Source of the DNA: Patescibacteria group bacterium | GTDB lineage: Bacteria > Patescibacteriota > JAHJAL01 | Direction of reading: 5' to 3' | DNA length: 64,000 bases | NCBI GenBank assembly: GCA_049322675.1 | Contig: JBMORM010000009.1 | Span: 92,995 to 156,994 of the forward strand | Part shown: one piece after another, positions 1,466 to 35,257 of the stretch | Layout: each line of letters begins with the position of its first letter | Numbering within the stretch: the stretch's first letter is position 1 | Translations under genes and position numbers: made by a program | The notes under the pieces: generated by a model | What the model saw: only the letters and a program-made list of their open reading frames with translations | The model's database searches: none | What the model was told of the DNA's origin: nothing

Positions 1466-1473
1466 AGATTGTA

Positions 1474-1682: not shown

Positions 1683-1689
1683 TCGTCGA

Positions 1690-1760
1690 GACAAAATTGT
1701 AAAATGATCAATTTCCAATTTCCAGTTTCCAAAAAATTTCCAATGTTCAATTTTCAATAG
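1690..1760. repeat. Copy of GGAAATTGGAAA short repeat family, immediately upstream of tRNA-Gly on the minus strand
   Basis: The minus-strand reading tattgaaaattgaacattggaaattttttggaaactggaaattggaaattgatcatttt shares about 36 near-identical nt with the copies at 26581-26665 and 30060-30120. Confidence 0.5.
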
Positions 1761-2595: not shown

Positions 2596-2600
2596 CGAAT

Positions 2601-2978: not shown

Positions 2979-2993
2979 AGATACTCCAAAATA

Positions 2994-16626: not shown

Positions 16627-16670
16627 AGTAGTTGTTGGATGGATATTAATTGAATAATTAAATCATACTT

Positions 16671-18458
16671 TTATTCGCTGGCCGGTCGGACGCAGATAGC
16701 TAATCTTTCTTCGGTTTTGTATACACTTTTTATTTTTATTTTATACACAATATTTAGAGTATCTTCTTGGTTTTGAGCAGTATTGCGTGGCCAGAAATAG
16801 TAAGCCGTGGCCCGTTCATCACTAAAATTATATATATTGTATTCGAGACAGGAACCTCCCGTACAAATTGGACAACCATAAGCATCCCAAACTGGATTAC
16901 ATGTGTACACTGGATATCCTTGGTTAGCTCCAATTGGACCATCTTCGTTGGAGGACCAAGCATACATTACGTCCCAATTTGAGCTTCCCGTTTCATAGTC
17001 ATAAGGAGGATTATCTGGAAAACCAAAACTTTTTTGGATGTAATTGGAAAGATGACGATCAGTTTCATTGCTATTCCATAGTTGCGCTAAAACTGCTCTA
17101 ATTTGACTCAATTGATAGAGGGAAGGTAAATACCAATCTATGTAATCATAATCGGTTTTATTCCAACAATACGAAGCTGCCGGATTGTTGGGGAGACCAT
17201 TTTCAACCAAAGTTTTGGTGTTGTCATAACCGTTGACCCAGTCTTGAGTTGTTAATTCATTGAAACCTTCGGTTGTGGACCATTTTTGATAAGGGTTATT
17301 TACGGAAACAATCAATGGGCCAATTTTTATTCCACCGCCGCACTTGGTACCATTGGGATAATCTTCTTTGCATGGTCGTTGATAATCGTTGTCTGATGGC
17401 GGATCGGGATTTTCGTAATCACAATTTGGGTTTTCGGCCGGGTCGCAAGGTCCGGGGTTGGTAATATTTTCCGGATCGGCCGGGTCGGGTTCGGGGTCAC
17501 CTCCACCGCCGCCGGGAGTTTTCGGATCCCCGCAATTGACATAAACGGTAACATCGTTGGAATACAAACAACGATAACTGAAACGATAATGATAGAGACG
17601 ATGATTGAGAACATCCAAATCTGTAGTCGACACTTTGCCGACAGAGCCATTGATAATCTTGTAATCGTTTGCAGTGATGCGATCGTCATACAATGGCGCA
17701 GCACAGATATAGTCATCGATCATCACCTGACAATATTGGCTGGTATATTTTTGACCGGCACCCTTGATAAAACCACCGGTAACATAAAGACTATTTCCAA
17801 GACCGATACGACCCGGGCAATATAATTCAGCCAATTCGCTATTGTTGGATGTATTAATGTCATTGGTATAGGCGGAAAATAAATGAACTTTGGCTCGACC
17901 ACTGGAACAATCGACAGTCGCTTCCAGAGGGGAATTGGAATAAAAGTTGGCTTCAAAATATTCTTCGCGACAAATTGTGCTGGTGTCGCCGCTGGAATTA
18001 ATGGATTCAACCAGGTTGGTCATCTCTTTCCCTGCTTGAGTATTGAGCAAACTACAACCCAGATAATAACTCGTATCGCTATCGGGCGGACAAATCGGGT
18101 TTTGACGAACATTGGTTTGAGGGGTGGAAAAACAAGCTTTGTAACGTAATTTGTCTCCGGGTTTCAAAGTGGGCAAAGCTGTGCCGGTATCAATATTGAA
18201 TAGTGTTTTCTTTTCCAAACTTTGGTCAGCATATTTGTAGTAGGTGTATTCAACTTTGGTATCGGTTTTGCTTTCGCATTGAGCGCCGACGAAATTCATG
18301 CTAATATTCCAAGATTCATCAGCGGTGCCTTTATTATCAATTTGCAGCCTGGGCCAAATATCACAGGCATAAGCTTGACTACTGATGCCACGGACGGCTA
18401 AAACAAAAAGGAAGAGATAAAAAAACGATTTGATAAAGTTAAAAAATTTTTTGTCCAT
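16671..18458 (-). CDS. Secreted Cys-rich protein with Pro/Asp-rich linker and C-terminal DUF1566 (Lcl C-terminal)-like domain
   Basis: 595 aa. It has a signal peptide (..FLFVLAVRGISSQAYA), a PGGGGGDPEPDPADPENITNPGP linker and a C-terminal DWYLPSLYQLSQI motif that resembles the DUF1566 W-LPT..EL core. Confidence 0.45.
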   Translation of the reverse strand: MDKKFFNFIKSFFYLFLFVLAVRGISSQAYACDIWPRLQIDNKGTADESWNISMNFVGAQCESKTDTKVEYTYYKYADQSLEKKTLFNIDTGTALPTLKPGDKLRYKACFSTPQTNVRQNPICPPDSDTSYYLGCSLLNTQAGKEMTNLVESINSSGDTSTICREEYFEANFYSNSPLEATVDCSSGRAKVHLFSAYTNDINTSNNSELAELYCPGRIGLGNSLYVTGGFIKGAGQKYTSQYCQVMIDDYICAAPLYDDRITANDYKIINGSVGKVSTTDLDVLNHRLYHYRFSYRCLYSNDVTVYVNCGDPKTPGGGGGDPEPDPADPENITNPGPCDPAENPNCDYENPDPPSDNDYQRPCKEDYPNGTKCGGGIKIGPLIVSVNNPYQKWSTTEGFNELTTQDWVNGYDNTKTLVENGLPNNPAASYCWNKTDYDYIDWYLPSLYQLSQIRAVLAQLWNSNETDRHLSNYIQKSFGFPDNPPYDYETGSSNWDVMYAWSSNEDGPIGANQGYPVYTCNPVWDAYGCPICTGGSCLEYNIYNFSDERATAYYFWPRNTAQNQEDTLNIVYKIKIKSVYKTEERLAICVRPASE

Positions 18459-18464
18459 TGTAAA

Positions 18465-19094
18465 TTATTGATTGATCATTATTTGTTTCAATAAAAGATT
18501 TTTATTGTTCCAATCCCAGGTCCACCATACAGTGGCGGGTTGATTTTGAATATTTGACCATTGATCAGTCGAGATAGAGTTCATATCCTGGTTGATAATC
18601 AACTGAGGATTGACTAGAGAGTATATATAGTTTTGACCCTGCCAATTTAACGAGATTTGATTGTTGGTAGGATCAATATTGTTAATAATTAATTCGATTC
18701 CGGAGTGAAGTTTAATTTTAATAAGAGTAATAGTCGGTTTATCAGTTATCATTTGGTAGGTAACTTCAATCTGGTGGGGATTGGATATCAAATTTTTAAA
18801 ACTTACCTGATCGGTCTGAATCAAAGTACCATCGCTTTCCAAAACGAAAATATCAGCTGCGGATAGACCGGCCAATTTATATCGCAAATCCTGATCTTGA
18901 ATGATCAAGTCATCATCAGGCATGGAAACGACATGTCCCACTACTGATTGATAACTGCTATTTGTCTGATTATTATTAACCGATGATTGTTGGGTAAAAT
19001 ATTTTTGACTCAGCCACCAACCGCCGATAGATAATAATAAGACAAAAATTAGATAATAATATTTTTTTAAAGGCCAACGAGTGGTCATAATCAA
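18465..19094 (-). CDS. N-terminally membrane-anchored hypothetical protein
   Basis: 209 aa with a single N-terminal TM (YYYLIFVLLLSIGGWWL). Its ATGA overlap with the upstream gene implies co-translation in an operon. Confidence 0.45.
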   Translation of the reverse strand: MIMTTRWPLKKYYYLIFVLLLSIGGWWLSQKYFTQQSSVNNNQTNSSYQSVVGHVVSMPDDDLIIQDQDLRYKLAGLSAADIFVLESDGTLIQTDQVSFKNLISNPHQIEVTYQMITDKPTITLIKIKLHSGIELIINNIDPTNNQISLNWQGQNYIYSLVNPQLIINQDMNSISTDQWSNIQNQPATVWWTWDWNNKNLLLKQIMINQ

Positions 19095-19765
19095 TTTTTG
19101 ATTTCCTGGGTGTTATTGGGAATAATTTCGATTTTGGTAGCGGTGATAGTTTGTTCAGATATTTTTTTGCCGGTGATAGCTAGTTGGTTACCAACTTTCA
19201 ATTGTGAAAACGGAAGTTTTTCCGCACGCAGGTTGTGTTCGTCTTGGCCAATAATGTTGGTAGTATCGTCTGTTTGTATTTTCCAGGTGACATTACCGGC
19301 AGCAAGGGTAAAATTTTTACCGTCAACTGCGGTTACGGTACCGACGGTGGAGAACTCCGGCATTAGAATCGCTGACAAAACTTTGGTCTGTTCGTTTTCT
19401 CGCCGATAAATCAGATTGAGTTTGGCACCAACGACAATTGATTTTAAATCTGTGTTTTCAAAATCTTGATTATAGCTGCTTAGTCGCGTGACAGGAATTT
19501 TATCATTGAAAACAAATTGATAAACTTGTCCATCTTGGTCATTTTTGAGGGTAAGTTGATTGTTTTGCCACTTAGTAATTTCTCCGGTCATAGCGGAAAT
19601 TGGTTGATCAATACTCGCCGGCGGCTGACTACTAGTGAGTTGATTTTGGGTTTGACGATACCACCAAATACCGATGACAAGCAGCAAAACAAAAAGAAAA
19701 ACCAACAAAATTTTGGTTTTCGGTTGACTAAAAATTTCTTTGATTGGAGAGCGATTTTCTTCCAT
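19091..19765 (-). CDS. N-terminally membrane-anchored hypothetical protein (first gene of giant-protein operon)
   Basis: 224 aa with a single N-terminal TM (ILLVFLFVLLLVIGIWWY) and an extracytoplasmic domain. An AT-rich putative promoter region lies at 19766-19958. Confidence 0.45.
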   Translation of the reverse strand: MEENRSPIKEIFSQPKTKILLVFLFVLLLVIGIWWYRQTQNQLTSSQPPASIDQPISAMTGEITKWQNNQLTLKNDQDGQVYQFVFNDKIPVTRLSSYNQDFENTDLKSIVVGAKLNLIYRRENEQTKVLSAILMPEFSTVGTVTAVDGKNFTLAAGNVTWKIQTDDTTNIIGQDEHNLRAEKLPFSQLKVGNQLAITGKKISEQTITATKIEIIPNNTQEIKN

Positions 19766-19958
19766 AAAAAATGCTTCGATTATCTTAAACTTATTTTAGT
19801 TTAAACTCTTTTTTTTGATAGCACAACCCTGAAAAAAATCTCAATTATATATTTTATTTACTTTGATTTTTTTGACTTTGATTTATGTGATCAAGATATA
19901 TTTTTTGCTTATTTTTTTGTTACAATAAAAATATCAAGAAATTAATATATAAAAAAAT

Positions 19959-20426
19959 ATGTTCAAGAAATTTGCAATCATGTCTGGATTTTTATTATTG
20001 ATCGTTTTGGTTGGTTGTGGAAAATCGGACGGGAAAAATGACGGAAAGAAAACTAATCAAATCGCTAATCCGGCATCAACCAATTGCTTCCAAAAAGATG
20101 GTAATTTGGTTATGGAGAAGAAACCAGATGGTTCGGAATATGGGGTGTGCAAATTCAAAAATGGAAAAGAGTGCGAAGAATGGGCGTTGTTCAATGATTC
20201 TTGTCCGGTGGGCGGAGTAGATACTGCAAATTACGATAAGGCTGGCAGGTATTGTTTAATCACCGGCAACAAATATTTGGCCGATGTTGAACCGCCACAA
20301 TGTTCTTTGACCAGTGGAAAGGTTTGCGATGCCGAAAAATATTACCAAAATAACTGTCTTGGTGAGAGCAACAGCGAGTTTTGGAAAGATATTCCGGCAC
20401 AAGTGGATTCGAGCGAGAAAAAATAG
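19959..20426 (+). CDS. Lipoprotein with two DUF333-like (putative hemolysin-like, Cys-rich) repeats
   Basis: 155 aa. The lipobox is LLIVLVGC. The first repeat reads ANPASTNCFQKDGN...GVCKF.NGKECEEWALFNDSCP, matching the ANPAS..C...GG...C..DGS.C.EW signature. A second degenerate copy follows. Confidence 0.5.
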   Translation: MFKKFAIMSGFLLLIVLVGCGKSDGKNDGKKTNQIANPASTNCFQKDGNLVMEKKPDGSEYGVCKFKNGKECEEWALFNDSCPVGGVDTANYDKAGRYCLITGNKYLADVEPPQCSLTSGKVCDAEKYYQNNCLGESNSEFWKDIPAQVDSSEKK

Positions 20427-20441
20427 TTTTGGAGAAAAAAA

Positions 20442-20900
20442 TTACCAGGGGCCGCAGATTGGATCCTGGTGGTTTTGGTGTTCGACAATACGGCGAAGAT
20501 GCCCCGGAGATATATTTTCGGGTAGATTCGTTAGAGAGAAAAAGCGATATTCGATTATTTCTTTCGGATCAATTTTCACAAGGGACTGATCCACTTGGTC
20601 TTCGGATCGAAAAAAGATAATATGATCGCGCTTGCCTTCGATTTGCGATTTGTACAAACCAAACAATCAAACGTTTTTAAGAGATATATTTAGTTCCTCG
20701 CGTAATTCACGTTTGATAGCCGTGGAAAAATCCTCCTGATATTCTACCGCGCCGCCGGGCAACATCCAATCTGGTAAATAGGTATGTCGCACAAGCAATA
20801 TTTTTCCGTCGTTTATCAAAATGATTCGCACACCAAAAGTAACCGGCCTAAAGATGAGCCAGTAGAGACGCGCTATTGGATAGAGAAAGCGATATAACAT
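20442..20900 (-). pseudogene. NUDIX hydrolase interrupted by an in-frame TGA (stop at 20667-20669)
   Basis: The 77-aa ORF carries a full Nudix box (GGAVEYQEDFSTAIKRELREELNI). The 74-aa ORF continues in the same frame directly after the TGA. Combined length is about 152 aa, typical for a NUDIX protein. Confidence 0.55.
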
Positions 20901-20915
20901 TAGTTTGAAAATAAT

Positions 20916-20998
20916 GCGGTCGGGGAGACTTGAACTCCCACGGGTTGCCCCACATGCACCTCAAGCATGCGCGTATACCAAATTCCGCCACGACCGCT
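20916..20998 (-). tRNA. tRNA-Leu (anticodon GAG), no encoded CCA
   Basis: Reverse complement is GCGGTCGTGGCGGAATTTGGTATACGCGCATGCTTGAGGTGCATGTGGGGCAACCCGTGGGAGTTCAAGTCTCCCCGACCGCA. It has a long variable arm, the anticodon loop TTGAGGT and a T-loop GTTCAAGTC. Confidence 0.85.
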
Positions 20999-21235
20999 CG
21001 TCGGAGTCGTTCTTAACGTTTCGTGCGAGCCAGACATACTGTCTCCCACTTCACTTCCAGAACGCCTCCTCCTCTACAAAAAAATTTCTGCGACAATTTT
21101 TTTGTTAAGATACATTCGGGAATACGATCCTATCGTTTCGTGCGAGCCAAAACGTTTTGGATGGGTGAGCGCGAGACCTGCCCGTACAGTAAAGGATCGG
21201 TTCTTTTTCCCGAAAATTTCTTTGATAATTTTTAC
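20999..21235 (-). repeat. Two tandem units (about 105 and 130 nt) of a conserved tRNA 5'-leader element
   Basis: Minus-strand unit B (20999-21104) reads aaaaaattgtcgcagaaatttttttgtagaggaggaggcgttctggaagtgaag...ggctcgcacgaaacgttaagaacgactccgacgagcg and joins directly to the tRNA. Unit A (21105-21235) repeats the aaaattatcaaagaaattttcggg...ggctcgcacgaaacgataggatcgtattcc architecture. Homologous copies lie at 26716-26818 and 23420-23563. Confidence 0.6.
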
Positions 21236-21308
21236 GAAAAGCTAAATGTTAAATTTTCAGTAGTTACTTTTAAATATAATTTCTGTTCCCAGGAGTATGC
21301 AAGATTTT

Positions 21309-23030
21309 TTATTTTTGCTTCCATTCTCGTTTGGTGTTGATATACCAATCACTTATTCCCAAAAATCTTTCGGCGGGATTGGAAGCTTGTTGAACATTAA
21401 CGCCCATAACCGCTTTGTTGACAGCATAAATGTAGTAAGGCCGGTACAAAAAAACGGCCGGTTTTTCGTCATAGATGGCAACTTGCATGGGTAGATAGCT
21501 ATGAATACGACTGTCCGGATCATTGGTCCGACGAGCAGTTTCAATGTAACGATCAACTTCAACGTTGGAATAGTTGGAGAGGTTCAAACCGGGATCTGCA
21601 GTCTGGCTGGAATGCCAATATACGTACGGATCGGGATCACTGCCCAAATTTTCGCCGAAGAGAAGAGCATCGTAGTTTCGAGGTTTGATAAATTGATTCT
21701 CCAGATCACCGATATTATACACTCCTATTTCTAGATCTATACCAATATTTTTCCAATTGGTTTGAACCATTTTGGCAGCGCGGATAAAATCAGGCGAGTC
21801 AGAAGTAACCAAGGTAAATTTCAAGCGAGTATTATCTTTTTCCCTGATACCGTCGCCATCAATATCGCTCCATTTACCTTTTTCAAGAATACTTTTGGCT
21901 TTTTCAACATCATAAGGCAAATTTGGTATCTCGGGATTGTTTCCAAGAAAACCTTCCAAGATTGGCGTGTTGATAATTTTGCCTTTATCGAAAAGAACTT
22001 CTTTAAGAATCAGCTCTCGATCAAGTCCATAGTACAGGGCTTCTTTGACGTAGGGATCTCGAAGCAACGGCTTGGAATTTTGGTTGATGAAAATCGCGGT
22101 ATATTGAGGTAGGGAAATATCATAAAAATTGGCGGTCGTAGCTTGGCTTGAAACATATTGCCAGTCCATCGTCAAAACATGCCCGATACTGATTATTTCT
22201 TTTTTTTGATAGGCAGTATAAACATCCTGATAATTTTCGTAAAATTTAAAAATCAGCGTATCAAGATAAGGTTCGCGACCATGATATTTGGAAAATTTTT
22301 CCAATTCAATTGAGTTATACACTCCTTTTTTGTCCACCAAAATTTTTTTTACTTTAAAGGGACCACTACCAATCGGCTCATAGTTGTAATCAGTGTCCGG
22401 TAATTGGGAGGGGTCGATTTTGGCAAAAATATGTTCGGGAATAACTCCAGTTGTCAAATTGGTAAGAAAAGGCGAAAAGACTTCGGGCAAAGTGAATTTT
22501 ATTGTTTTGTCATCAATTTTTTCTATAGTTACGTCCCGCCAATTGTCCTTGAGTGTACCGGGGTACTTTTCATTTTGAATAAGTTGATAGGTAAAAACAA
22601 CATCTGCAGCTGTTAAAGGTTGTTCGTCGTGCCAAAAGAGATTATCTTTCAGATGGACAGTGTAGGACTTACCGTCTTCAGAAATTTCCCATTTATCTGC
22701 CAAGTCTCCGATCAATTGATGATTATTGTCGTAGGTCAACAAGCCGGAGAAGATGATCTGGACCAGATCCCGATCGATATCGTTGGTTTGAGATAAAATC
22801 GGGTTGATCATGGCCGGTTGGCCGGCCAATCCTTCGATCAATGTTCCACCCTTGGCTGCAATCACCGTGGTTTGGCCGGTATAGTATCTGCTGCCAAAAT
22901 ATCCTCCCAACAATAATATCAGGATAACTCCCAGAATTATTTTATTTGCATATATCCAATCAAAAACTTCTCGAAGATTTTTGGGCAAGACAAACCAGGA
23001 TGGCTTAAAACGTCGCCATGATTGATTCAT
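21309..23030 (-). CDS. ABC transporter substrate-binding protein, peptide/oligopeptide family 5, N-terminally anchored
   Basis: About 573 aa from the Met that begins MNQSWRRFKPSW. It has a TM anchor and SBP_bac_5-like motifs throughout (e.g., NYEPIGSGPFKVKK). Confidence 0.75.
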   Translation of the reverse strand: MNQSWRRFKPSWFVLPKNLREVFDWIYANKIILGVILILLLGGYFGSRYYTGQTTVIAAKGGTLIEGLAGQPAMINPILSQTNDIDRDLVQIIFSGLLTYDNNHQLIGDLADKWEISEDGKSYTVHLKDNLFWHDEQPLTAADVVFTYQLIQNEKYPGTLKDNWRDVTIEKIDDKTIKFTLPEVFSPFLTNLTTGVIPEHIFAKIDPSQLPDTDYNYEPIGSGPFKVKKILVDKKGVYNSIELEKFSKYHGREPYLDTLIFKFYENYQDVYTAYQKKEIISIGHVLTMDWQYVSSQATTANFYDISLPQYTAIFINQNSKPLLRDPYVKEALYYGLDRELILKEVLFDKGKIINTPILEGFLGNNPEIPNLPYDVEKAKSILEKGKWSDIDGDGIREKDNTRLKFTLVTSDSPDFIRAAKMVQTNWKNIGIDLEIGVYNIGDLENQFIKPRNYDALLFGENLGSDPDPYVYWHSSQTADPGLNLSNYSNVEVDRYIETARRTNDPDSRIHSYLPMQVAIYDEKPAVFLYRPYYIYAVNKAVMGVNVQQASNPAERFLGISDWYINTKREWKQK

Positions 23031-23038
23031 AGAAAAAG

Positions 23039-23254
23039 TTAGATAATAATATTGGCAATCGAAGCGGTAATAAAGAATACCGTCAGGACAATAGTTCCCC
23101 AATGTAGGAATTTTTCTAAACCTCTTTTGCTTTGGTAGATGTTACTTTCCCCGCCAAATACACCCCCCAAGGCTGAACCTTTGTGCTGCAGCAAAATAAA
23201 AACCACAATCAGGACGGAGATGACAATTTGCCCGTACATTATGTATTGTTGCAT
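23039..23254 (-). CDS. secG: Preprotein translocase subunit SecG
   Basis: 71 aa with two TM helices and the central LLQHKGSALGGVFGG motif. Confidence 0.7.
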   Translation of the reverse strand: MQQYIMYGQIVISVLIVVFILLQHKGSALGGVFGGESNIYQSKRGLEKFLHWGTIVLTVFFITASIANIII

Positions 23255-23348
23255 ATTTGTTTATTTAATAATGAATAATGAAGAGTGAATAATAACCTAT
23301 AATAAATATTTTATTATTAACTATTCATTTTTAATTATTAATTCAAAA

Positions 23349-23419
23349 AGGCGTGGACGGGATTCGCACCCGTGTACACGGTTTTGCAGACCGTTACCTA
23401 ACTCCTCGGTCACCACGCC
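23349..23419 (-). tRNA. tRNA-Cys (anticodon GCA), no encoded CCA
   Basis: Reverse complement is GGCGTGGTGACCGAGGAGTTAGGTAACGGTCTGCAAAACCGTGTACACGGGTGCGAATCCCGTCCACGCCT. The anticodon stem is ACGGT/ACCGT, the loop is CTGCAAA and the discriminator is U73 as expected for Cys. The D-arm is atypical. Confidence 0.7.
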
Positions 23420-23563
23420 TCGTCGGAACACGATCCTACCGCTACACGCAAGTCAAAAGTATTTGCCTTTCGTTTCGCTACCGGATCGGTTCCTCCTCTA
23501 CAAAAAAATTTCTACGACAATTTTTTTGTTAACATACATTCAGGAACACGATCCTATCGTTTA
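23420..23563 (-). repeat. tRNA 5'-leader element copy upstream of tRNA-Cys, plus the tail of a preceding unit
   Basis: The minus-strand reading is ...aaacgataggatcgtgttcc|tgaatgtatgttaacaaaaaaattgtcgtagaaatttttttgtagaggagga...gcgtgtagcggtaggatcgtgttccgacgag, then the tRNA. It shares the AAAAATTGTCG.AGAAATTTTT..GGAGGA core and the ggatcgt.ttcc unit end. Confidence 0.55.
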
Positions 23564-23681
23564 GAGATAGAAAATAAATTCTAGTTTATATGATTGGACT
23601 AATAATAATCATATCTATTATTGATCGATTTTGCAACTTTGATAAAAAAGGCTAATATTTATTTAAGGTAAAAATATTTTT

Positions 23682-24290
23682 ATGCAAATTTTTTTGACGT
23701 ATCACTGGCAGTTGATTTTGCAAGTGATTGGTATTTTGATTCTTTTGTTGATTATATATATAAACTTTTTCAGTCGGAAAACTCCGGCTTGGTTGGCAGA
23801 TCTGGTCAATTACCTAAACTTTCGCAATGAAGACAATATTGAACGATGGCTAATCTACTCAAAATATTTCAAGAATCACCGCGTAAAATGGTTGGAGGGA
23901 TACTGTGGAAAACGTGAAAACAAGGAGATATTTTTTGGTCTATTTGAGATGGATAATCAACTATTTTTTTGTTCAATTGTGAAAGCGGAAGTCAAGCCAA
24001 TGATTTTAACAAACAAATTGGACGAAAAATATGATTGGGATTTTTCCGAAAATATTATTATCAATAATACTTCCTACAACTTGTTTGCTAGCGAAAAATA
24101 TTTATCTACTAATATTAAAAAGTCGGGGAATTTTCAATTGATGCTGGGAGAAATATTCAAGGGGAAAATTAGTGTTTTGGAATTTACAGAACTAAATCAG
24201 GTTATTTTAATTTCAGATCGGCTATTTGAGACCAGCAAGGAAGGGATTGAATTTTTTTCAACATTTATTCATCTAAAAGACGAGTTATAA
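23682..24290 (+). CDS. Hypothetical membrane-anchored protein
   Basis: 202 aa with an N-terminal TM (LILQVIGILILLLIIYINFF). It ends 8 nt before pcrA. Confidence 0.4.
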   Translation: MQIFLTYHWQLILQVIGILILLLIIYINFFSRKTPAWLADLVNYLNFRNEDNIERWLIYSKYFKNHRVKWLEGYCGKRENKEIFFGLFEMDNQLFFCSIVKAEVKPMILTNKLDEKYDWDFSENIIINNTSYNLFASEKYLSTNIKKSGNFQLMLGEIFKGKISVLEFTELNQVILISDRLFETSKEGIEFFSTFIHLKDEL

Positions 24291-24297
24291 TTTTGCC

Positions 24298-26526
24298 ATG
24301 AAAAATGACATTGTTTCTGGTTTAAACGACAAACAAAAAGAAGCGGTTTTGTGCGCTGACGGCCCACTTTTAATTTTGGCGGGCGCCGGGAGCGGAAAAA
24401 CCAAGACTTTGACGCATCGCATTGCTCATATTGTCAAAGAAAAAAAGATAAGCCCTTATAATATTTTGGCGGTAACTTTTACCAATAAAGCTGCCAAGGA
24501 AATGAAGTCTAGGATTTCTAAGTTATTGAAATTGTCAGACAATTTTGGTTCTTTTGAGACAAACCTACCTTGGATGGGGACATTTCATTCAATTTGCGTG
24601 CGGATTTTGAGAGAACATGCCGGTAAACTTGGTTACAAAAATTCTTTTGCCATCTACGATAGCGACGACCAATTGACGGCGGTAAAAAAGGTAATGAAGG
24701 AACATCATATCGATCCAAAACAATATCATCCTCAGGCTATCAGATCGCATATTTCCGGCGCAAAAAATGAATTGATTGACGCCAAACATTATCAGGAAAT
24801 GGCCCATATCAATGATTTTAGTTCCATGGTTTCTTTGGTGTATCTCGATTATCAAAAATTACTAAAGGACAACAATGCGATGGATTTTGATGATTTGATT
24901 ATGAACACAGTGATGTTATTGGAAAAATATCCGGAAATCCGGCGGGATTATCAGGAGAAGTTTCAGTATATTTTAATTGATGAATATCAAGACACCAATC
25001 AGGCTCAATATACTCTGGTAATGCTTTTAACCAATCAAAAAAATAATATTTGCGTCGTCGGAGACGACGCACAATCTATTTACTCATGGCGAGGAGCGAC
25101 GATACGAAATATCCTGGAATTTGAAAAAGATTTCAAAAATACCAAAGTCATAAAATTGGAGCAGAACTATCGATCGACTAAAAATATTTTGGCTGCGGCC
25201 GATCAGGTAATCGCCAAAAATTCCGGGCAAAAAAAGAAGAAATTGTGGACGGAAAATCCCCAAGGAGAAAAGCTGACTATTTACCAAGCGCAAAATGAAT
25301 TGGACGAAGCCCGATTTGTGGCGGAAGAGATTTTGAAGAATAAGGATAACAATGAATTGGATTTGAAAGACTTTGCGATTTTGTATCGCACCAATGCTCA
25401 ATCACGCACAATTGAAGAAATGCTACTTAAATACAATATTCATTACCGAATCGTCGGTGGTCTGAAATTTTACGAAAGAAAAGAAATAAAAGATGTGCTG
25501 GCGTATTTGAAAGTTATCGTAAATCCAACCGACATCTTGAGTCTGAGCAGAATTATCAACACGCCTCCGCGCGGGATTACCAAAAACACTATCAACAGTT
25601 TGGAAGTAATTGCCAGAGAGTATTCGATGAACATCTGGGAAGTGATTTCAAAAATAGCCAATGACAATAATGGCATCAGAGAATTGGCGGAAAATCATAT
25701 TAATGCTCGGGCGATAAAGAACCTGATCGGCTTTTTTAATTTTATTTCCGAATGGCAAGGGAAAATGACAAAAAATAATCCTTCGGAATTTTTGGTTGAG
25801 ATAATAAACAAAAGTGGTTATCGGGACTGGCTCAATGACAAATCGATCGAGGGTGAAACCAGATTAGAAAACTTGCAAGAGTTGCTGACAGTTTTGGAAA
25901 AATACAACAATTTTGAAGCCGAGGAAGGTATTCGTTTATTTTTGGAAGAAGTCGCTTTGATTACAGATATTGACAATTTTGACGAAAACGAAAATGTGGT
26001 TACTTTGATGACTTTGCATAGTGCCAAGGGTTTGGAATTTCCGGTGGTGTTTATGGTAGGTATGGAAGAAAATTTATTTCCTCATGCTCGTTCGATCATG
26101 GAGGCGGCAGAAATGGAAGAGGAAAGACGTTTGTGTTATGTAGGCATCACTAGAGCGAAAAAGTTTTTATACTTAACCTATGCTCAGCTACGCAATATTT
26201 TTGGTAACACCCAAATCAATCCTCCTTCCAGATTTTTGGCGGACATTCCGGGAGAATTAATCAAGGAAGTGGGGCAAAGGAAAAAATCAGGTATTTTGAA
26301 AAATCCGGCACTTGGAGTCAGACCAAATAAAATGGGGCAAAAAATAATTCTTGACGAGGACTGGGGTATTTTTAAGTCCGGGGATGTAGTGACACATCCC
26401 AAATTCGGTCGAGGCAGAATCGTTCAAATTCAGGGAGGTATTATCAAAGTCGGATTTGAAAGTGGTGGTATTAAGAGTCTGGCAGCCGCTATCGCCCCAT
26501 TGAAAAAAATCGACAACGACGAATAA
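24298..26526 (+). CDS. pcrA: ATP-dependent DNA helicase PcrA/UvrD
   Basis: 742 aa. Walker A is AGAGSGKTKTLTHRIAHIV, with helicase motifs DEYQDTNQAQY and VGDDAQSIYSWRGA. The C-terminal region is UvrD-like. Confidence 0.85.
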   Translation: MKNDIVSGLNDKQKEAVLCADGPLLILAGAGSGKTKTLTHRIAHIVKEKKISPYNILAVTFTNKAAKEMKSRISKLLKLSDNFGSFETNLPWMGTFHSICVRILREHAGKLGYKNSFAIYDSDDQLTAVKKVMKEHHIDPKQYHPQAIRSHISGAKNELIDAKHYQEMAHINDFSSMVSLVYLDYQKLLKDNNAMDFDDLIMNTVMLLEKYPEIRRDYQEKFQYILIDEYQDTNQAQYTLVMLLTNQKNNICVVGDDAQSIYSWRGATIRNILEFEKDFKNTKVIKLEQNYRSTKNILAAADQVIAKNSGQKKKKLWTENPQGEKLTIYQAQNELDEARFVAEEILKNKDNNELDLKDFAILYRTNAQSRTIEEMLLKYNIHYRIVGGLKFYERKEIKDVLAYLKVIVNPTDILSLSRIINTPPRGITKNTINSLEVIAREYSMNIWEVISKIANDNNGIRELAENHINARAIKNLIGFFNFISEWQGKMTKNNPSEFLVEIINKSGYRDWLNDKSIEGETRLENLQELLTVLEKYNNFEAEEGIRLFLEEVALITDIDNFDENENVVTLMTLHSAKGLEFPVVFMVGMEENLFPHARSIMEAAEMEEERRLCYVGITRAKKFLYLTYAQLRNIFGNTQINPPSRFLADIPGELIKEVGQRKKSGILKNPALGVRPNKMGQKIILDEDWGIFKSGDVVTHPKFGRGRIVQIQGGIIKVGFESGGIKSLAAAIAPLKKIDNDE

Positions 26527-26580
26527 TAATTTGATTGAAATATTCTTTGATGATAAGATTAAAAATGTATTTTGTTCGCG

Positions 26581-26665
26581 AATTTCCAATTTCCAGTTCT
26601 TCCCTCACGGGACCGAACTACTGCTGGCAATTTCCAAAAAATTTCCAATGATCAATTTTCAATGA
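26581..26665. repeat. Copy of GGAAATTGGAAA/TTTCCAATTTCC short repeat family
   Basis: aatttccaatttccag...gcaatttccaaaaaatttccaatgatcaattttcaatg. The reverse complement shares about 36 nt with the copy at 1690-1760. Confidence 0.5.
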
Positions 26666-26715
26666 AAAGTTCGTTTTTGAAATTTTAAATTATGAATCTG
26701 GTATTTAAGTCTCCC

Positions 26716-26818
26716 AAAAATTGTCGAAGAAATTTTTGGGAAAAGGAGGAGGCGTTCTGGTAGTGAAGCATGAGACGGTATTCCGGCTCATGTGAAACGA
26801 TAAGAACGACTCCGACGC
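26716..26818 (+). repeat. Conserved tRNA 5'-leader element (clearest copy), immediately upstream of tRNA-Val
   Basis: caaaaattgtcgaagaaatttttgggaaaaggaggaggcgttctggtagtgaagcatgagacggtattccggctcatgtgaaacgataagaacgactccgacgcgg. The 24-nt block GGAGGAGGCGTTCTGG.AGTGAAG and the GAAACG.TAAGAACGACTCCGACG block are identical or near-identical to the tRNA-Leu(GAG) copy. Confidence 0.6.
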
Positions 26819-26892
26819 GGGCGGTTAGCTCAGCTGGTTAGAGCGCTTGCCTTACACGCAGGAGGCCAAAGGTTCGATCCCTTTACCGCCCA
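26819..26892 (+). tRNA. tRNA-Val (anticodon TAC), no encoded CCA
   Basis: GGGCGGTTAGCTCAGCTGGTTAGAGCGCTTGCCTTACACGCAGGAGGCCAAAGGTTCGATCCCTTTACCGCCCA: a canonical cloverleaf with the anticodon loop CTTACAC. Confidence 0.85.
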
Positions 26893-26912
26893 TTGAAAAA
26901 AGGAGAGTAAAT

Positions 26913-27542
26913 TTGATAATTAAAAAAAGAGACAACTTTTTTGTCATTGCCGTTTTTTTGTTGTTGTTTTTTGCAGTGTGGTTTTTTATTAGGACCATGA
27001 TTGGTTCTGCTGTTGATACAAAAATTTCGACGGCGATTTTTGATTTTGGTCATAGTGATTTTCTGACCATATTTTTCTTGTTTATCACAAATTATACTTT
27101 GGGAGAAATAGCTGGGGTTTTTGCGGTAATGATTTATGGCGCTTTTTGCAAGGATAAATTTTTCTTGATTATTTCGAGCCTTGTTTCTTTATTAATTTTG
27201 GCAGCCGATTGGTTTCTAAAAAATATTTTTGTTCGTCCCAGACCATTTGTTACCTTGCCTGAAGTAGAAAATATTTCTGATTATATTTTACGTGATTATT
27301 CATTTCCTAGCGGACATACGGTATTCGCTTTTTTTATCGCTTACATCCTAACCCATCGTTTTCAATTTGTCGGGATAAAAAAGTATTCAATATATTTCTT
27401 GGCGATTTTGGTTGGTTTTTCCAGGATATATCTGGGAGTTCACTACTTTGGAGATGTTCTTGCCGGAGCTATACTGGGATCATTGTTTGGAATTATAACA
27501 ATGTTGATTATGAATAAATACCCTCGAACTATTTTGAAATAA
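26913..27542 (+). CDS. PAP2-family (phosphatidic acid phosphatase type 2 / undecaprenyl-PP phosphatase-like) membrane protein
   Basis: PAP2 motifs are FVRPRPF, SFPSGHT and SRIYLGVHYFGDVLAG. I chose the TTG start at 26913, which has an AGGAGA Shine-Dalgarno 6 nt upstream, because the upstream ATG at 26847 overlaps tRNA-Val. Confidence 0.65.
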   Translation: MIIKKRDNFFVIAVFLLLFFAVWFFIRTMIGSAVDTKISTAIFDFGHSDFLTIFFLFITNYTLGEIAGVFAVMIYGAFCKDKFFLIISSLVSLLILAADWFLKNIFVRPRPFVTLPEVENISDYILRDYSFPSGHTVFAFFIAYILTHRFQFVGIKKYSIYFLAILVGFSRIYLGVHYFGDVLAGAILGSLFGIITMLIMNKYPRTILK

Positions 27543-29966: not shown

Positions 29967-29989
29967 AAAAAATTTATAATTTTCAATTT

Positions 29990-30120
29990 AAAATTTACAT
30001 TAAATTTCCAATTTCCAATGATCAATTTCCAAAGAAGGCTCAATTTCCAAACAGATTGTATTCATTGAAAATTGAAAATTAGACATTTTTTGGAAATTGG
30101 AAACTGGAAATTGGAAATCT
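29990..30120. repeat. Inverted pair of GGAAATTGGAAA-family repeats in the spacer between the ABC ATPase and permease genes
   Basis: aatttccaatttccaatgatcaatttccaaag ... cattgaaaattgaaaattagacattttttggaaattggaaactggaaattggaaatc. The two halves are in opposite orientation and can form a long imperfect hairpin. Confidence 0.5.
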
Positions 30121-31042
30121 ATTTCGTGAGTTCGTGGAATATGTCTTCCATGCTGTTTTCTTTGAAAGTTATTTCGAGCAAATCAAAGCCGCGGCCGATA
30201 ACTGCTTTATTGATTTCTGAACGCAAATCGGTGTCGGATTCAATGATAAAAAGATGGATGCCGTGTTGTTTACTTGCTTCTTTTTTGATATTACCGGCAC
30301 CGGGAATTTTTTTGATAGTAGAAATAATATCGTCTGCATCGCCTTTAATTGTGACCAGAATCTGATACGCTGATGCTTGGCCTCTTTTTATATCAGCAAG
30401 GCTACCGTCAGCGACCAAATGACCGTCTTTTATTAGTATGACTCGATCGCAGATGGCCTCAACTTCTTGCATGATGTGCGTGGATAAAATAATGGTCTTT
30501 TCTTTACTGAGAGAGGCGATCAATTCGCGGATTTCAATAATTTGGTTAGGATCAAGACCGGTGGTCGGTTCGTCCAGAATCAAAACTTGGGGATCATGAA
30601 TCAAGGCACAGGCCAAAGCCACTCGTTGTTTGTATCCCTTGGAAAGTTCAGATATATCTTGAAAAGTTTTTTCTTTTAAACCACAGGATTTGATTACTTT
30701 TTGGATGGCGCGTTTTTTGTCATTGCCGGTCAACCCATGAATTTCGGCAGCAAATTCCAATTGTTCATAAACTGACAGCTCAAAGTATAAAGAAGCAGAC
30801 TCCGGAAGGTAACCAATCATATTTTGGGCTGGTATCAGATCGGTAGTCACGTCGAAATCACCCACTTTGACTTGACCGGCGGTTGGCTTCAAAAATCCGG
30901 TAATAATACGCATGGCTGTCGTTTTGCCCGCGCCATTTGGTCCCAACAGTCCGACAATTTCTCCTTTGTTGATAGAAAAATTTACTTCTTTCAGAGCGGT
31001 ATGTGATCCGTATTTTTTGACAAGGTTATTTACTTCAATCAT
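30119..31042 (-). CDS. ABC transporter ATP-binding protein (GldA-like, ABC-2 type)
   Basis: Walker A is LLGPNGAGKTT, with signature LSKGYKQRVALA and Walker B ILILDEPTTGLD. The likely start is MIEVNNL at 31042. Confidence 0.8.
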   Translation of the reverse strand: MIEVNNLVKKYGSHTALKEVNFSINKGEIVGLLGPNGAGKTTAMRIITGFLKPTAGQVKVGDFDVTTDLIPAQNMIGYLPESASLYFELSVYEQLEFAAEIHGLTGNDKKRAIQKVIKSCGLKEKTFQDISELSKGYKQRVALACALIHDPQVLILDEPTTGLDPNQIIEIRELIASLSKEKTIILSTHIMQEVEAICDRVILIKDGHLVADGSLADIKRGQASAYQILVTIKGDADDIISTIKKIPGAGNIKKEASKQHGIHLFIIESDTDLRSEINKAVIGRGFDLLEITFKENSMEDIFHELTK

Positions 31043-34891: not shown

Positions 34892-35257
34892 ATGAAAGAT
34901 AAACAAAATAATGTTATTCAAATAAAATCATTTAATTTTTCAATAAGGATAATAAAATTATCTTTGTATTTATCAAAGCAAAAATGGGAATATATAATTT
35001 CAAAACAGATAATAAGGAGCGGAACTTCAATAGGGGCAAATATAGAAGAAGCAATTGGCGGCTATTCTAAAAAAGATTTTATGAATAAAATTTCTATTGC
35101 GTACAAAGAAGCAAGGGAAACATTATATTGGATTAAATTATTATATGCCACAAATTTTTTATCAGAAAAAGAATATCATTCCATATCAATTGATTGCCGA
35201 GAGCTACTGAAAATTTTAACTAAAATATTGATTACTTGCAAAAAAAGTAAAAGTTAA
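34892..35257 (+). CDS. Four-helix-bundle protein (23S rRNA intervening-sequence protein family, PF05635-like), antisense insertion inside the atp operon
   Basis: 121 aa. The motifs RSGTSIGANIEEAIGGYSKKDF and KEARETLYWIKLL are diagnostic for this family. Imperfect inverted repeats flank the gene (ttaaattaacaattaacaatgaaaaattaacaat / ttaattgttcattgttaattttt). Confidence 0.7.
   Translation: MKDKQNNVIQIKSFNFSIRIIKLSLYLSKQKWEYIISKQIIRSGTSIGANIEEAIGGYSKKDFMNKISIAYKEARETLYWIKLLYATNFLSEKEYHSISIDCRELLKILTKILITCKKSKS

What the first reader, a model, noticed from the sequence alone, without database searches (positions are those of the whole stretch)
20999..21235. Tandem duplication of the tRNA leader unit upstream of tRNA-Leu(GAG), with the same unit-end motif upstream of tRNA-Cys
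Two consecutive units on the minus strand both end with ggctcgcacgaaacg.ta.ga. The distal unit terminates in ...gataggatcgtattcc, exactly where the proximal unit begins. In the tRNA-Cys locus the same ...aaacgataggatcgtgttcc junction precedes the leader at 23541-23563. Units therefore appear to be modular and head-to-tail, as if each once preceded a tRNA. This suggests loss of tRNAs, or a replicative or recombining element that targets tRNA 5' ends.
Basis: seen in the sequence. Interest (0 to 1): 0.5.

Follow-up and report, generated by a model that had tools for sequence, protein, structure and literature searches.

The report
Modular hairpin repeats abutting tRNA genes
The "duplicated tRNA leader" is real: it is two copies of a previously undescribed, about 125-base two-hairpin module that sits directly against tRNA genes in one group of Patescibacteria, keeps its fold through compensatory changes, and is gained, lost, duplicated and swapped between tRNA loci by recombination.

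Summary
Four copies of one module lie in the window, all at tRNA genes: Leu(GAG) proximal and distal, Cys and Val. Each module has an 11-bp A/T hairpin (H1, loop GUCGNAGA), an AGGAGG-like single strand and a long hairpin (P2) with purine-rich internal loops. A GACGA(G) spacer ends 0-9 nt from the tRNA.

A covariance model finds 39 copies in Patescibacteria contigs. In the 32 best, 95% of cells pair and 26 of 32 pairs show compensatory changes. Rfam has no match.

The tandem pair is not a one-off duplication. A distal "B" variant followed by a proximal "A" variant recurs at five other tRNA loci in other genomes. Orthologous loci in six related genomes carry zero, half, one or two modules. Window and L074 differ at tRNA-Cys by exactly one module, bounded by repeats of the P2 3' arm.

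tRNA loss is not supported: junctions are direct and uniform. A recombining element at tRNA ends is partly supported, but copies also abut tRNA 3' ends in antisense and precede rpsD. No transposase was found.

The function is inferred only: most likely a transcribed leader removed by RNase P.

The parts
20915..20997 (-). tRNA-Leu(GAG); no encoded CCA. The NUDIX gene starts 14 nt downstream.
   Evidence: ARAGORN; Rfam tRNA model, 53 bits; Pfam NUDIX match for 20667-20900.
20998..21118 (-). Proximal unit, variant A. It consists of junction/box cgaatgTATCTTaac (21118-21104), H1 hairpin 21105-21076 (loop GUCGCAGA, 21094-21087), purine tract AGAGGAGGA (21075-21067), P2 hairpin 21069-21003, and single-stranded GACGA 21002-20998 abutting tRNA position +1.
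   Evidence: CM R1, 117 bits, E=9e-25; MFE -39.4 kcal/mol, z=-5.3; sequence read.
21119..21250 (-). Distal unit, variant B, partly decayed. It has an H1-like hairpin at 21236-21209 (loop AUCAAAGA) and P2 arms gaaccgatcc (21203-21194) and ggatcgtattc (21130-21120). The inner palindrome is decayed: gggcaggtctcgcgctcaccc, against GGGCAGGTCATGACCTGCCC in intact B copies.
   Evidence: CM R1, 34 bits, E=6e-6; fold z=+0.5; alignments with intact B copies; same unit in L017.
23348..23420 (-). tRNA-Cys(GCA), followed on the same strand by secG and the SBP_bac_5 gene.
   Evidence: ARAGORN; Rfam places it at 23349-23419; Pfam SecG and SBP_bac_5.
23420..23542 (-). tRNA-Cys unit, variant A. It consists of box tgaatgTATGTTaac (23542-23528), H1 23529-23500 (loop GUCGUAGA, 23518-23511), AGAGGAGGA, P2 23493-23425 and GACGA 23424-23420.
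   Evidence: CM R1, 130 bits, E=1e-27; MFE -39.0 kcal/mol, z=-5.3.
23543..23562 (-). Isolated copy of a unit's 3' end (aaacgataggatcgtgttcc) upstream of the Cys unit. It is the direct repeat that bounds the one-unit difference from L074.
   Evidence: Repeat family D9, 89 nt at 89% identity with the Leu junction; three-way alignment of window, L074 and L017.
26700..26818 (+). tRNA-Val unit, variant A, single copy. It consists of box ggTATTTAag (26700-26709), H1 26712-26741 (loop GUCGAAGA, 26723-26730; the stem is CCC/GGG where Leu and Cys have ACA/UGU), AAAAGGAGGA, P2 26748-26813 and GACGC 26814-26818.
   Evidence: CM R1, 111 bits; MFE -46.7 kcal/mol, z=-7.1.
26819..26892 (+). tRNA-Val(TAC), followed about 20 nt later by the PAP2 gene.
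   Evidence: ARAGORN; Rfam, 70 bits; Pfam PAP2.
1684..1693 (-). ctcGACGAGC directly upstream of tRNA-Gly(CCC). Only the unit's terminal spacer is present here. The orthologous loci L010 and L033 carry full units.
   Evidence: Three-way alignment; no CM hit at this position with filters off.

Best explanation
The 237-nt finding is two adjacent members of a family of modular, hairpin-forming repeats. In one clade of Patescibacteria these repeats occupy the spacer that directly abuts tRNA genes.

Shown:
- Each module is an A/T-rich hairpin H1, an AGGAGG-like single strand, a long hairpin P2 with two purine-rich internal loops, and a GACGA(G) spacer.
- Both hairpins are maintained by compensatory substitutions across lineages whose P2 sequences are unrelated.
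- Modules are added, removed and exchanged by recombination at the module ends (…TTCC-YGA|ATGTAT… and …TTCC-GA|CGAG-tRNA).
- As a result, orthologous tRNA loci in related genomes hold zero, half, one or two modules, and copies within a genome resemble each other more than their orthologs.
- The window's Leu(GAG) pair is an older B-type module, which is tRNA-proximal in L074, with a younger A-type module now lying between it and the tRNA.
- The junction fragment upstream of tRNA-Cys is the direct repeat left by the same kind of event.

Inferred:
- In its usual orientation the module is transcribed as the 5' leader of the pre-tRNA and cut off by RNase P.
- The constant 5-7 nt single-stranded spacer keeps the cleavage site accessible next to a very stable helix.
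- The module acts in cis as a structured RNA, affecting transcript stability, processing or expression level. It may possibly carry its own -10-like box (TATnTT) just upstream of H1.
- It is dispensable, because some orthologous tRNA loci lack it entirely.
For: Architecture and fold: searches give the same two-hairpin fold in 11 copies, with z from -3.6 to -7.3, even where P2 sequences are unrelated (L035, L039, L029, L025, L019).

Covariation:
- RNAalifold finds 18 of 32 pairs with double changes.
- On 32 copies, 95% of cells are paired, against 32-50% when partners are slid.
- 26 of 32 pairs show changes on both sides, and 0 of 500 shuffles reach the observed values.

Association with tRNAs: of the 32 best copies, 21 abut a tRNA 5' end, 3 abut a tRNA 3' end in antisense, 4 are distal members of arrays that abut a tRNA, and 4 lie elsewhere. 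There are no hits in 33 IMG/VR loci. None of the 13 non-Patescibacteria genome hits has one, except L019.

Recurrent B-A order: window and L017 (Leu-GAG), L022/L031 (Val), L032 (Lys-CTT), L033 (Gly) and L026 (Leu-CAA, B-A-A).

Turnover at orthologous loci: and the Gly(CCC) locus in three states.

Chimeric Cys unit.

Concerted evolution: the GGGACAAATCC-type P2 occurs at the Val, Lys and Gly loci of one assembly, JAEAMF01.

Strand: the model scores the reverse strand at only 16-29 bits. Internal loops are purine-rich on the unit strand in all lineages.

Spacer and RNase P: hairpins that sequester the 5' leader block RNase P in a designed system (PMC7897497, abstract seen). That is consistent with, but does not prove, a role for the constant spacer.
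Against: - No expression data exist. Neither transcription nor the strand that is transcribed has been shown.
- Three full copies and one half-copy lie antisense to the tRNA they abut, where they cannot be 5' leaders.
- One copy precedes a protein gene, rpsD.
- Well-preserved copies are almost purely Watson-Crick. G.U pairs outnumber A.C mismatches only modestly (36 against 21 overall, about 12 against 3 in intact copies), and some of these come from alignment register. A DNA-level hairpin is therefore not excluded.
- The promoter scan is not above background (26 sites against 18.6 expected). The TATnTT box is missing in one lineage (SDBT01).
- L078 expresses the same tRNAs with no module, so any host function is non-essential.
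- The copies are related repeats rather than independent lineages, which inflates the covariation counts.
Confidence: 0.55

Rival explanations
1. Selfish miniature mobile DNA that moves as a single-stranded hairpin, in the manner of REPIN/RAYT elements or IS200/IS605-derived palindromic elements. An enzyme encoded elsewhere in the genome would excise ATGTAT…TTCCGA and reinsert it at YGA^CGA sites. The right end of a resident copy recreates such a site, so new copies stack on the tRNA-proximal side. The fold would be conserved because the enzyme needs it, not because the host does.
For: - Presence/absence differences of exactly one unit with sharp, repeated junctions.
- B is always distal and more decayed, and A is always proximal.
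- L038's leftmost copy lies next to unrelated flank ending in …acTGA|ATATAT.
- The window's unit-less Gly locus still reads ctcGA|CGAGC.
- The spacer is duplicated in L010 (GACGA-GACGAGC) and L008.
- Copies occur in either orientation relative to the tRNA.
- Subterminal hairpins sit at both ends.
- The AT-rich H1 is retained in a genome of 60% GC (L029).
- Intact copies are nearly pure Watson-Crick.
- The same genome carries another palindromic repeat family.
Against: - No transposase, RAYT, integrase or reverse transcriptase among the 47 ORFs of the window, and none next to any copy.
- Leftmost array boundaries share no common target sequence.
- Simple recombination between the repeated 3' arms explains the one-unit indels without any enzyme.
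- Strand-specific purine-rich internal loops, an SD-like tract, and a position exactly at the start of the mature RNA or start codon all look like RNA-level constraints.
- Absent from viral contigs.
Confidence: 0.25
2. Portable promoter-plus-leader cassette ('mobile promoter'). On this view each unit brings a -10 box (TATnTT) 5-9 nt upstream of H1. The transcript then starts with a protective 5' hairpin, and the B-A pair acts as tandem promoters, as in rRNA operons. The AGGAGG tract would serve as a ribosome-binding site when the cassette lands before a protein gene.
For: - A TATnTT-like hexamer with T, A and T at the key positions lies upstream of H1 in about 18 of 25 copies. These include copies with unrelated left flanks (L010, L005, L003, Val, L024, and L004 with TATAAT).
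- Units sit at the head of tRNA-plus-gene strings.
- In seven cases the upstream gene is divergent, so a promoter must lie nearby.
- In L029, P2 ends 10 nt before the GTG start of S4, and no other SD is present.
- Homologous promoter regions upstream of unrelated genes are a documented phenomenon (PMC3488235).
Against: - The consensus scan is not enriched and calls no promoter at the box.
- There is no consistent -35 element.
- The box is absent in SDBT01 copies.
- A good TTGCAA-17-TATGAT site lies upstream of the Cys unit and is conserved in L074, which has no unit.
- Antisense copies would fire into tRNAs.
- A promoter role does not explain the covarying P2.
Confidence: 0.12
3. Local accident: a one-off tandem duplication of the Leu(GAG) leader, or leftover leaders of tRNA genes that were deleted.
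For: The two units are adjacent and share a 15-nt identical block. The distal copy is decayed.
Against: - The distal unit is a different variant (B), not a copy of the proximal one.
- The same B-A order and the same junction recur at five other tRNA loci in other genomes.
- No tRNA remnant lies between units.
- In L074, B itself abuts the tRNA, so A lies between B and a tRNA that is still present.
Confidence: 0.04

Closest known systems
REP / BIME / REPIN elements of proteobacteria (from established knowledge; REPIN population paper PMC8049555 listed)
   Same: Multi-copy extragenic imperfect palindromes that form hairpins. They occur singly or in arrays and mosaics, evolve in concert within a genome, and are transcribed with neighbouring genes. 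The hairpin is kept despite sequence change.
   Different: - REPs are 20-40 nt, whereas this module is about 125 nt.
- REPs have a GTAG head and a cognate RAYT gene, which was not found here.
- REPs are scattered after many genes rather than pressed against tRNA ends.
- REPs have no SD-like tract and no fixed spacer to a mature RNA end.
BOX elements of Streptococcus pneumoniae and Correia elements of Neisseria (from established knowledge)
   Same: Modular repeats of 100-200 nt built from sub-modules with variable copy number. They fold into stable RNA structures and can supply promoters or processing sites that change expression of the adjacent gene.
   Different: - Different sequences and host phyla.
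- Correia elements have terminal inverted repeats and a TA duplication.
- Neither family is tRNA-abutting.
- Neither has been shown to have lineage-spanning compensatory covariation of the kind seen here.
Putative mobile promoters (PMC3488235, 'Promoter propagation in prokaryotes')
   Same: Homologous upstream regions found in front of non-homologous genes within and between genomes.
   Different: Those were defined by sequence similarity alone. Here the conserved part is mostly a transcribed, covarying structure, and promoter activity is unproven.
IS200/IS605-derived palindromic elements (PATEs) and their single-strand transposition mechanism (from established knowledge)
   Same: Subterminal hairpins at both ends, one-sided insertion next to a short sequence, precise loss, and no terminal inverted repeats.
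   Different: No TnpA or TnpB was found. No common target was seen at leftmost boundaries. tRNA adjacency is not a feature of that family.
Structured cis-acting 5' leaders such as T-box and tandem riboswitches, and the designed RNase P riboswitch (PMC7897497)
   Same: A structured leader placed a fixed short distance from the regulated or processed site, with tandem copies known. Leader helices near position -1 control RNase P access in the designed system.
   Different: - No Rfam family matches.
- The same module serves at least 13 different tRNA species, so there is no specifier.
- Internal loops are not conserved in sequence across lineages.
- The module is dispensable at orthologous loci.
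TIGR arrays of TIGR-Tas systems, reported in parasitic bacteria and phages (PMC12045711)
   Same: Tandem structured RNA units in small-genome bacteria.
   Different: TIGR units are about 36 nt, with 8-12-nt repeats and 9-nt spacers, in arrays of 5-15 next to a Nop-domain tas gene. Here the period is about 130 nt, there are at most 3 copies, and no Nop-domain protein is present.

Membership tests
Any Rfam 15 family | Match to a curated covariance model | tested here: not met
   Only tRNAs reach gathering score in the window. At E<=10 nothing relevant overlaps the units in 20800-27000, nor the intact B unit of L017.
tRNA / tRNA pseudogene (units as decayed tRNAs) | Cloverleaf detectable by a tRNA model | tested here: not met
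   ARAGORN and the Rfam tRNA model at E<=10 hit only the five true tRNAs. The units fold as two hairpins.
REP / REPIN | Short (20-40 nt) imperfect palindrome, or an inverted pair of such, with a conserved GTAG head | tested here: not met
   The unit is about 125 nt with two different hairpins. GTAG occurs inside P2 (GGUAGUG), not at an end.
REP / REPIN | Cognate RAYT (Y1 HUH transposase) gene in the genome | not testable with these tools
   None among the 47 window ORFs.
Classical MITE | Terminal inverted repeats plus a short target-site duplication | tested here: not met
   The ends (ATGTAT… and …TTCCGACGAG) are not inverted repeats of each other. The flanking repeats seen are the 12-20-nt P2 3' arm, which is element sequence.
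IS200/IS605-type palindromic element | Subterminal hairpins at both ends | tested here: met
   H1 lies 12-14 nt from the left boundary. P2 ends 2-5 nt from the right junction.
IS200/IS605-type palindromic element | Insertion 3' of one fixed 4-5-nt target | tested here: inconclusive
   YGA precedes the insertion point in all tandem junctions and in L038. It does not in L010, L005, L003 or L024.
IS200/IS605-type palindromic element | TnpA or TnpB encoded by autonomous copies | not testable with these tools
   Not in the window. The whole genome is not available.
Integron attC site | R'' RYYYAAC … R' GTTRRRY boxes on an imperfect palindrome, in cassette arrays with or near intI | tested here: not met
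   P2 arms are GGAACCGATCC/GGATCGTGTTCC and similar. Only one copy has GTTAAGA, which fails the final Y. There are no cassettes and no integrase.
TIGR array | Units of about 36 nt with alternating 8-12-nt repeats and 9-nt spacers, next to a Nop-domain tas gene | tested here: not met
   The period here is about 130 nt and no Nop-domain protein is present. Family features were taken from PMC12045711.
Intrinsic terminator | G+C-rich stem followed by a U tract | tested here: not met
   The terminator scan calls none at the units. The H1 stem is all A/U, and P2 is followed by GACGAG.
Structured cis-acting RNA leader (generic kind) | Conserved secondary structure supported by compensatory changes | tested here: met
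   26 of 32 pairs have changes on both sides and 95% of cells are paired, against 32-50% in slid controls. Caveat: the copies are related, and the alignment is fitted to the model.
Structured cis-acting RNA leader (generic kind) | Transcribed together with the downstream gene | not testable with these tools
   No transcript data are available. Only position supports it: 0-9 nt from the mature 5' end.
Mobile promoter | Demonstrable promoter in the shared segment | tested here: inconclusive
   The TATnTT box is present in most copies. The consensus scan is not above background and calls no site there.

The most novel reading that the evidence does not exclude
On its own strand the module always sits immediately 5' of a cloverleaf, either a tRNA or the mirror image of one. 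The most novel reading not excluded is therefore an element that homes by recognising tRNA structure rather than sequence. That could happen on folded single-stranded DNA. Alternatively it could happen at the RNA level: RNase P cutting defines the module's 3' end, and leaders are re-joined to other RNase P products and copied back into the genome.

A related functional version is that RNase P releases the module as an abundant small RNA. Its exposed AGGAGG and purine-rich loops would bind 30S subunits or a ribosomal protein such as S4, since one copy precedes rpsD. That would couple tRNA output to ribosome status.
Probability: 0.1. Interest if true: 0.85.

Novelty: new variant of a known kind. 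Interest (0 to 1): 0.55.

Why it matters
Patescibacteria have tiny genomes with little non-coding DNA, yet this clade keeps and reshuffles a 125-nt structured module against its tRNA genes. If the module is a host element, it is a new kind of pre-tRNA leader. It would be shared by at least 13 tRNA species and would offer a natural test of how helices next to the cleavage site affect RNase P. If it is selfish, it would be a miniature element with an unusually precise preference for tRNA ends on either strand, which would need a new targeting mechanism. In practice these repeats break assemblies (contig L073 ends inside H1 at both ends), and the tRNA finders and Rfam search run here did not report them. 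The covariance model built here gives a way to find them.

Tried and rejected
1. Pseudoknot between the H1 loop GUCG and the spacer CGAC. The two are complementary, but no compensation is seen. Loops GUCA (L035, L029), CCAAAAGA (L026) and UGAUCAGA (L076) all keep CGAC. Unsupported.

2. Mimicry of, or descent from, the 16S rRNA 3' end (h45 plus anti-SD). Blocks such as CCGTAGGGG…AACCTGC…GGT.GGATC occur together only in the L017 B copy, and GGAGGCGTTC/GAACGACTCC only in one P2 subtype. Other subtypes are unrelated, and there is no SSU hit. Judged coincidence.

3. A small ORF in the leader. GTG-initiated 10-13-codon frames exist in the Leu and Val units but not in Cys, and the substitutions are compensatory for pairing. 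Rejected.

4. Kink-turn or box C/D reading of GUGAAG…CGAAAC. The loop is a symmetric 3x3 purine loop with no 3-nt bulge, and it is not conserved in sequence across lineages.

5. TIGR array, integron attC, terminator, tRNA pseudogene. See the membership tests.

6. Phage origin. The 33 IMG/VR loci that hold the H1 pattern have no unit.

7. Promoter assignment by consensus scan. Inconclusive.

8. Strand of function from the G.U to A.C ratio. Only a weak excess was found.

9. A nearby recombinase. None found.

10. Taxonomy of L019 (labelled Christensenellaceae) and L029 (60% GC). This could not be settled with the tools, so whether the family leaves Patescibacteria is open.
Full report
**1. The observation**

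On the minus strand, tRNA-Leu(GAG) lies at 20915-20997. It is preceded by …ggctcgcacgaaacgttaagaacgactccgacga. About 130 nt further upstream lies …ggctcgcacgaaacgataggatcgtattcc, followed directly by cgaatgtatcttaac and an A/T hairpin. The tRNA-Cys locus has aaacgataggatcgtgttcc|tgaatgtatgttaac at 23562-23527.

The repeat finder reports 21050-21138 and 23474-23562 as an 89-nt repeat at 89% identity, and links both to the tRNA-Val leader (D9, I1, I6, I13). A 20-nt pattern for the hairpin loop hits exactly four places, against 0.13 expected by chance. The description is therefore correct, and the similarity is far beyond low-complexity resemblance.

**2. Anatomy of a unit**

Alignment and folding give the same architecture for the three tRNA-proximal copies:
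- an 11-bp A/T-rich hairpin, H1, with loop GUCGNAGA;
- a purine tract, (A)GAGGAGGA;
- a long hairpin, P2, made of a basal helix of 10-11 bp with one bulge or mismatch, a 4x4 loop, 2 bp, a 3x3 purine loop (GAA/GAA) and an apical stem;
- a single-stranded GACGA(G) that ends at tRNA position +1.

The folds are much more stable than shuffled sequence (z = -5.3, -5.3 and -7.1). The distal Leu copy is not (z = +0.5).

The H1 stems differ compensatorily: ACAAAAAAAUU in Leu and Cys against UCCCAAAAAUU in Val. So do the P2 arms: GGAGGCGUUC/GAACGACUCC against GGAACCGAUCC/GGAUCGUGUUCC.

Rfam has no family for this element.

**3. Relatives elsewhere**

One scan of 185,579 species genomes with a loop-plus-AGGAGGA pattern gave 21 loci. 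Eight of them came from a single Patescibacteria MAG, DAIRGB01. All of those lie next to tRNAs.
- L017 is syntenic with window 15655-23525 at 94.7% identity.
- L010 is syntenic with window 300-4242.

A metagenome scan added about a dozen real loci.

A covariance model built from 14 copies finds 39 copies at E<0.001 in the sequence held. It finds none in 33 viral loci. It finds none in the non-Patescibacteria chance hits, except L019, a contig binned as Christensenellaceae. With filters off, the window has only the four copies.

Of the 32 best copies (with tRNA positions):

| Position | Copies |
|---|---|
| Abut a tRNA 5' end (0-9 nt) | 21 |
| Abut a tRNA 3' end in antisense | 3 |
| Distal members of arrays that abut a tRNA | 4 |
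| Elsewhere | 4 |

The tRNAs involved are Leu (five anticodons), Cys, Val, Lys (two), Gly, Pro, Met and Glu.

**4. Is the structure real?**

RNAalifold finds 18 of 32 pairs with double substitutions. On the 32-copy alignment, 95% of cells pair and 26 of 32 pairs have changes on both sides. No shuffle out of 500 reaches any measure, and sliding partners by 1-3 columns drops pairing to 32-50%.

There are two caveats. The copies are related repeats, and the alignment is fitted to the model. However, copies with entirely unrelated P2 sequences fold independently into the same layout of basal stem, loop, short stem, 3x3 or 4x4 purine-rich loop and apical stem, with z from -3.6 to -7.3. These copies are L035 (GCAUUUUA…UAAAAUGC), L039, L029, L025 and L019.

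Three lines bear on which strand is functional. The purine-rich loops lie on the unit strand. The model scores the reverse strand poorly, at 16-29 bits. G.U pairs modestly outnumber A.C mismatches. Together these favour function as RNA, or as single-stranded DNA, of the unit strand, but not decisively.

**5. The 'tandem duplication' is a recurrent two-variant array**

The distal Leu unit belongs to a variant (B). In this variant the 5' half of the inner P2 is replaced by a perfect 20-nt palindrome, GGGCAGGUCAUGACCUGCCC, plus a short A/U hairpin. Intact B copies fold as a three-way junction (L005 and L017-Cys, z about -5).

In the window's distal unit this palindrome has decayed, and the model scores the unit at 34 bits, against 71-73 bits for intact B copies.

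The order B-distal, A-proximal, with the same junction TTCC(C/T)GA|ATGTATnTTAAC, recurs at these loci:
- Leu-GAG in L017;
- Val in L022/L031;
- Lys-CTT in L032;
- Gly in L033;
- Leu-CAA in L026, as B-A-A.

No A-B order was seen.

**6. Turnover at orthologous loci**

Homologs of the adjacent SBP_bac_5 protein led to four further syntenic genomes. All keep the order UvrD, 200-aa gene, tRNA-Cys, secG, SBP, tRNA-Leu(GAG). The state at each locus is as follows:

| Genome | tRNA-Leu(GAG) locus | tRNA-Cys locus |
|---|---|---|
| Window | B-A | repeat fragment plus A |
| L017 | B-A | B |
| L076 | A-A, with identical P2 (a recent duplication) | none |
| L075 | one divergent unit, with a 45-nt hairpin nested in the H1 loop | none |
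| L074 | a 5'-truncated B abutting the tRNA | only the P2 3' arm plus spacer |
| L078 | nothing; an 89-nt plain spacer | none |

Window and L074 share the upstream flank at tRNA-Cys, including a TTGCAA-17-TATGAT promoter-like site. They differ by exactly one unit, bounded by direct repeats of the 3' arm. L074's junction TTC-TGA|CGAC reads like the recombinant of the window's TTCC-TGA|ATGTAT and TTCC-GA|CGA.

At tRNA-Gly(CCC), L033 has B-A and L010 has one A with a duplicated spacer (GACGA-GACGAGC). The window has no unit but keeps ctcGACGAGC behind a different 285-nt insert.

Between window and L017, whose flanks are about 95% identical, the 5' half of the Cys unit is replaced. The B/A junction at Leu is also a cluster of differences. 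In assembly JAEAMF01 the same P2 type sits at Val, Lys and Gly, which indicates concerted evolution.

These results show that units are gained, lost, duplicated and exchanged by recombination at the unit ends. They also show that units are dispensable.

**7. What does not fit a simple leader**

- In DAIRGB01, three full units and one half-unit lie immediately 3' of tRNAs (Thr-TGT, Tyr, Thr-GGT, Met) on the opposite strand. The GACGA end again faces the tRNA, 2-9 nt away.
- In a genome of 60% GC (L029/L030), a unit fills the rpsK-rpsD spacer. P2 ends 10 nt before the GTG start of S4, and no other Shine-Dalgarno sequence is present.
- In L025, a unit follows 5S rRNA and its terminator, and precedes a short transcript or a 21-codon ORF.

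**8. Mechanism**

The following are shown:
- a covarying two-hairpin module;
- tight tRNA adjacency;
- unit-length recombinational turnover;
- exchange between loci.

The most likely role is inferred, at confidence 0.55. The module is transcribed as part of the pre-tRNA and removed by RNase P. The constant 5-7 nt single-stranded spacer would keep the cleavage site free next to a very stable helix; designed leaders that sequester this region block RNase P (PMC7897497). The module would then act in cis on stability, processing or expression.

Three rivals remain:
- A selfish single-strand-hairpin element, inserting at YGA^CGA, at 0.25. The sharp junctions, the proximal stacking, both orientations and a second palindromic repeat family in the same genome all fit it. 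No enzyme was found, and leftmost boundaries share no target.
- A portable promoter cassette, at 0.12. The TATnTT box fits, but the scan does not support it.
- A local accident or tRNA loss, at 0.04. This is contradicted by sections 5 and 6.

**9. Novelty**

No Rfam family matches, and none of the papers returned by the text searches run here describes it. The closest known kinds are REP/BIME/REPIN, BOX and Correia repeats, mobile promoters (PMC3488235) and structured leaders. This element differs from all of them in four ways:
- it is pressed against tRNA ends;
- it shows lineage-spanning covariation;
- it has an SD-like tract;
- it forms ordered B-A arrays.

It is best rated as a new variant of a known kind.

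Noticed in passing
window 1732-1926 (minus strand), between the NYN-domain gene and tRNA-Gly(CCC); also L005 753-949 and L003 1487-1779: A palindromic repeat of about 155-195 nt (GATGTCATCCTGGAGCCGAAAGCG…CCAGGATGACAC) that folds into one long hairpin (z=-6.9). It occupies the place where related genomes have the tRNA-leader unit, and it recurs at unrelated loci of the sister genome. This is a second, MITE-like repeat family.
   Followed up: partly
window 26577-26640 (+) and 1975-1915 (-); L003 about 790-850; L005 about 5620-5680: A third shared module, TTCCCTCACGGGACCGAACTRCTGCTGGCAATTTCC. It lies 110-270 nt upstream of several tRNAs (Val, Gly, Leu-TAA, Lys-CTT) and is at least 90% conserved between loci. 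At Gly the variant reads TTGACA where the others read CTGGCA. Its function is unknown.
   Followed up: partly
window 1315-1380, 1700-1770, 26628-26685, 29969-30121, 35534-35568, 37738-37772: Runs of AATTTCC/AATTTTC-like heptamers in both orientations flank tRNA genes and several other intergenic regions (repeat families D2, D3, D8, I2-I11). They also occur after tRNA-Lys in L034.
   Followed up: no
window 34892-35257 (+): A gene for a '23S rRNA-intervening sequence protein' (PF05635, E=1e-25) sits on the opposite strand inside the ATP synthase operon, between the beta and gamma subunit genes. It is flanked by AT-rich inverted repeats (I21).
   Followed up: no
window 5173-16626 (-): One open reading frame of 3,817 codons with several internal repeat families (D1, D4, D7, D11-D13). 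It was not analysed further.
   Followed up: no
window 51506-53701 (+): A class II Lys/Asp/Asn-type tRNA synthetase fused to a C-terminal HD domain (PF00152 plus PF01966).
   Followed up: no
window 2050-2595 (-) and 3703-4296 (+): A NYN-domain nuclease-like protein lies directly upstream of the tRNA-Gly/tRNA-Leu(CAG) pair, with an ECF-type sigma factor nearby. An ECF-type sigma gene also lies within about 2 kb downstream of the SBP gene in L075 and L076.
   Followed up: no
L004 1128-1283 (-): A 6S RNA gene (Rfam, 58 bits) lies 44 nt upstream of a leader unit and tRNA-Pro on the same strand. 6S RNA, unit and tRNA may therefore form one transcript.
   Followed up: no
L073 (Logan contig from SRR32167788), equal to window 21079-23530: An independent assembly is 100% identical to the window but ends inside the H1 hairpin at both ends. 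These repeats break short-read assemblies.
   Followed up: yes
L075 4240-4300 and L076 4480-4520: The H1 loop is not sacrosanct. L075 carries a 45-nt hairpin nested in the loop, L076 has loop UGAUCAGA and L026 has CCAAAAGA. Only the 3' AGA plus AAUUUUU stays constant.
   Followed up: partly
L025 3810-3875 (-): Right after a unit's GACGAG spacer there is a TTG-initiated 21-codon ORF (MLHPLKRTTQTALRLGIFTTL) followed by a terminator-like hairpin. It could be a small protein or an unknown small RNA.
   Followed up: no
window 20915-23420 (-): The gene order is tRNA-Cys, secG, a solute-binding protein, then tRNA-Leu(GAG). The secG/tRNA-Leu(GAG) linkage recalls the secG-leuU operon of E. coli (recalled from memory, not tested).
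   Followed up: no
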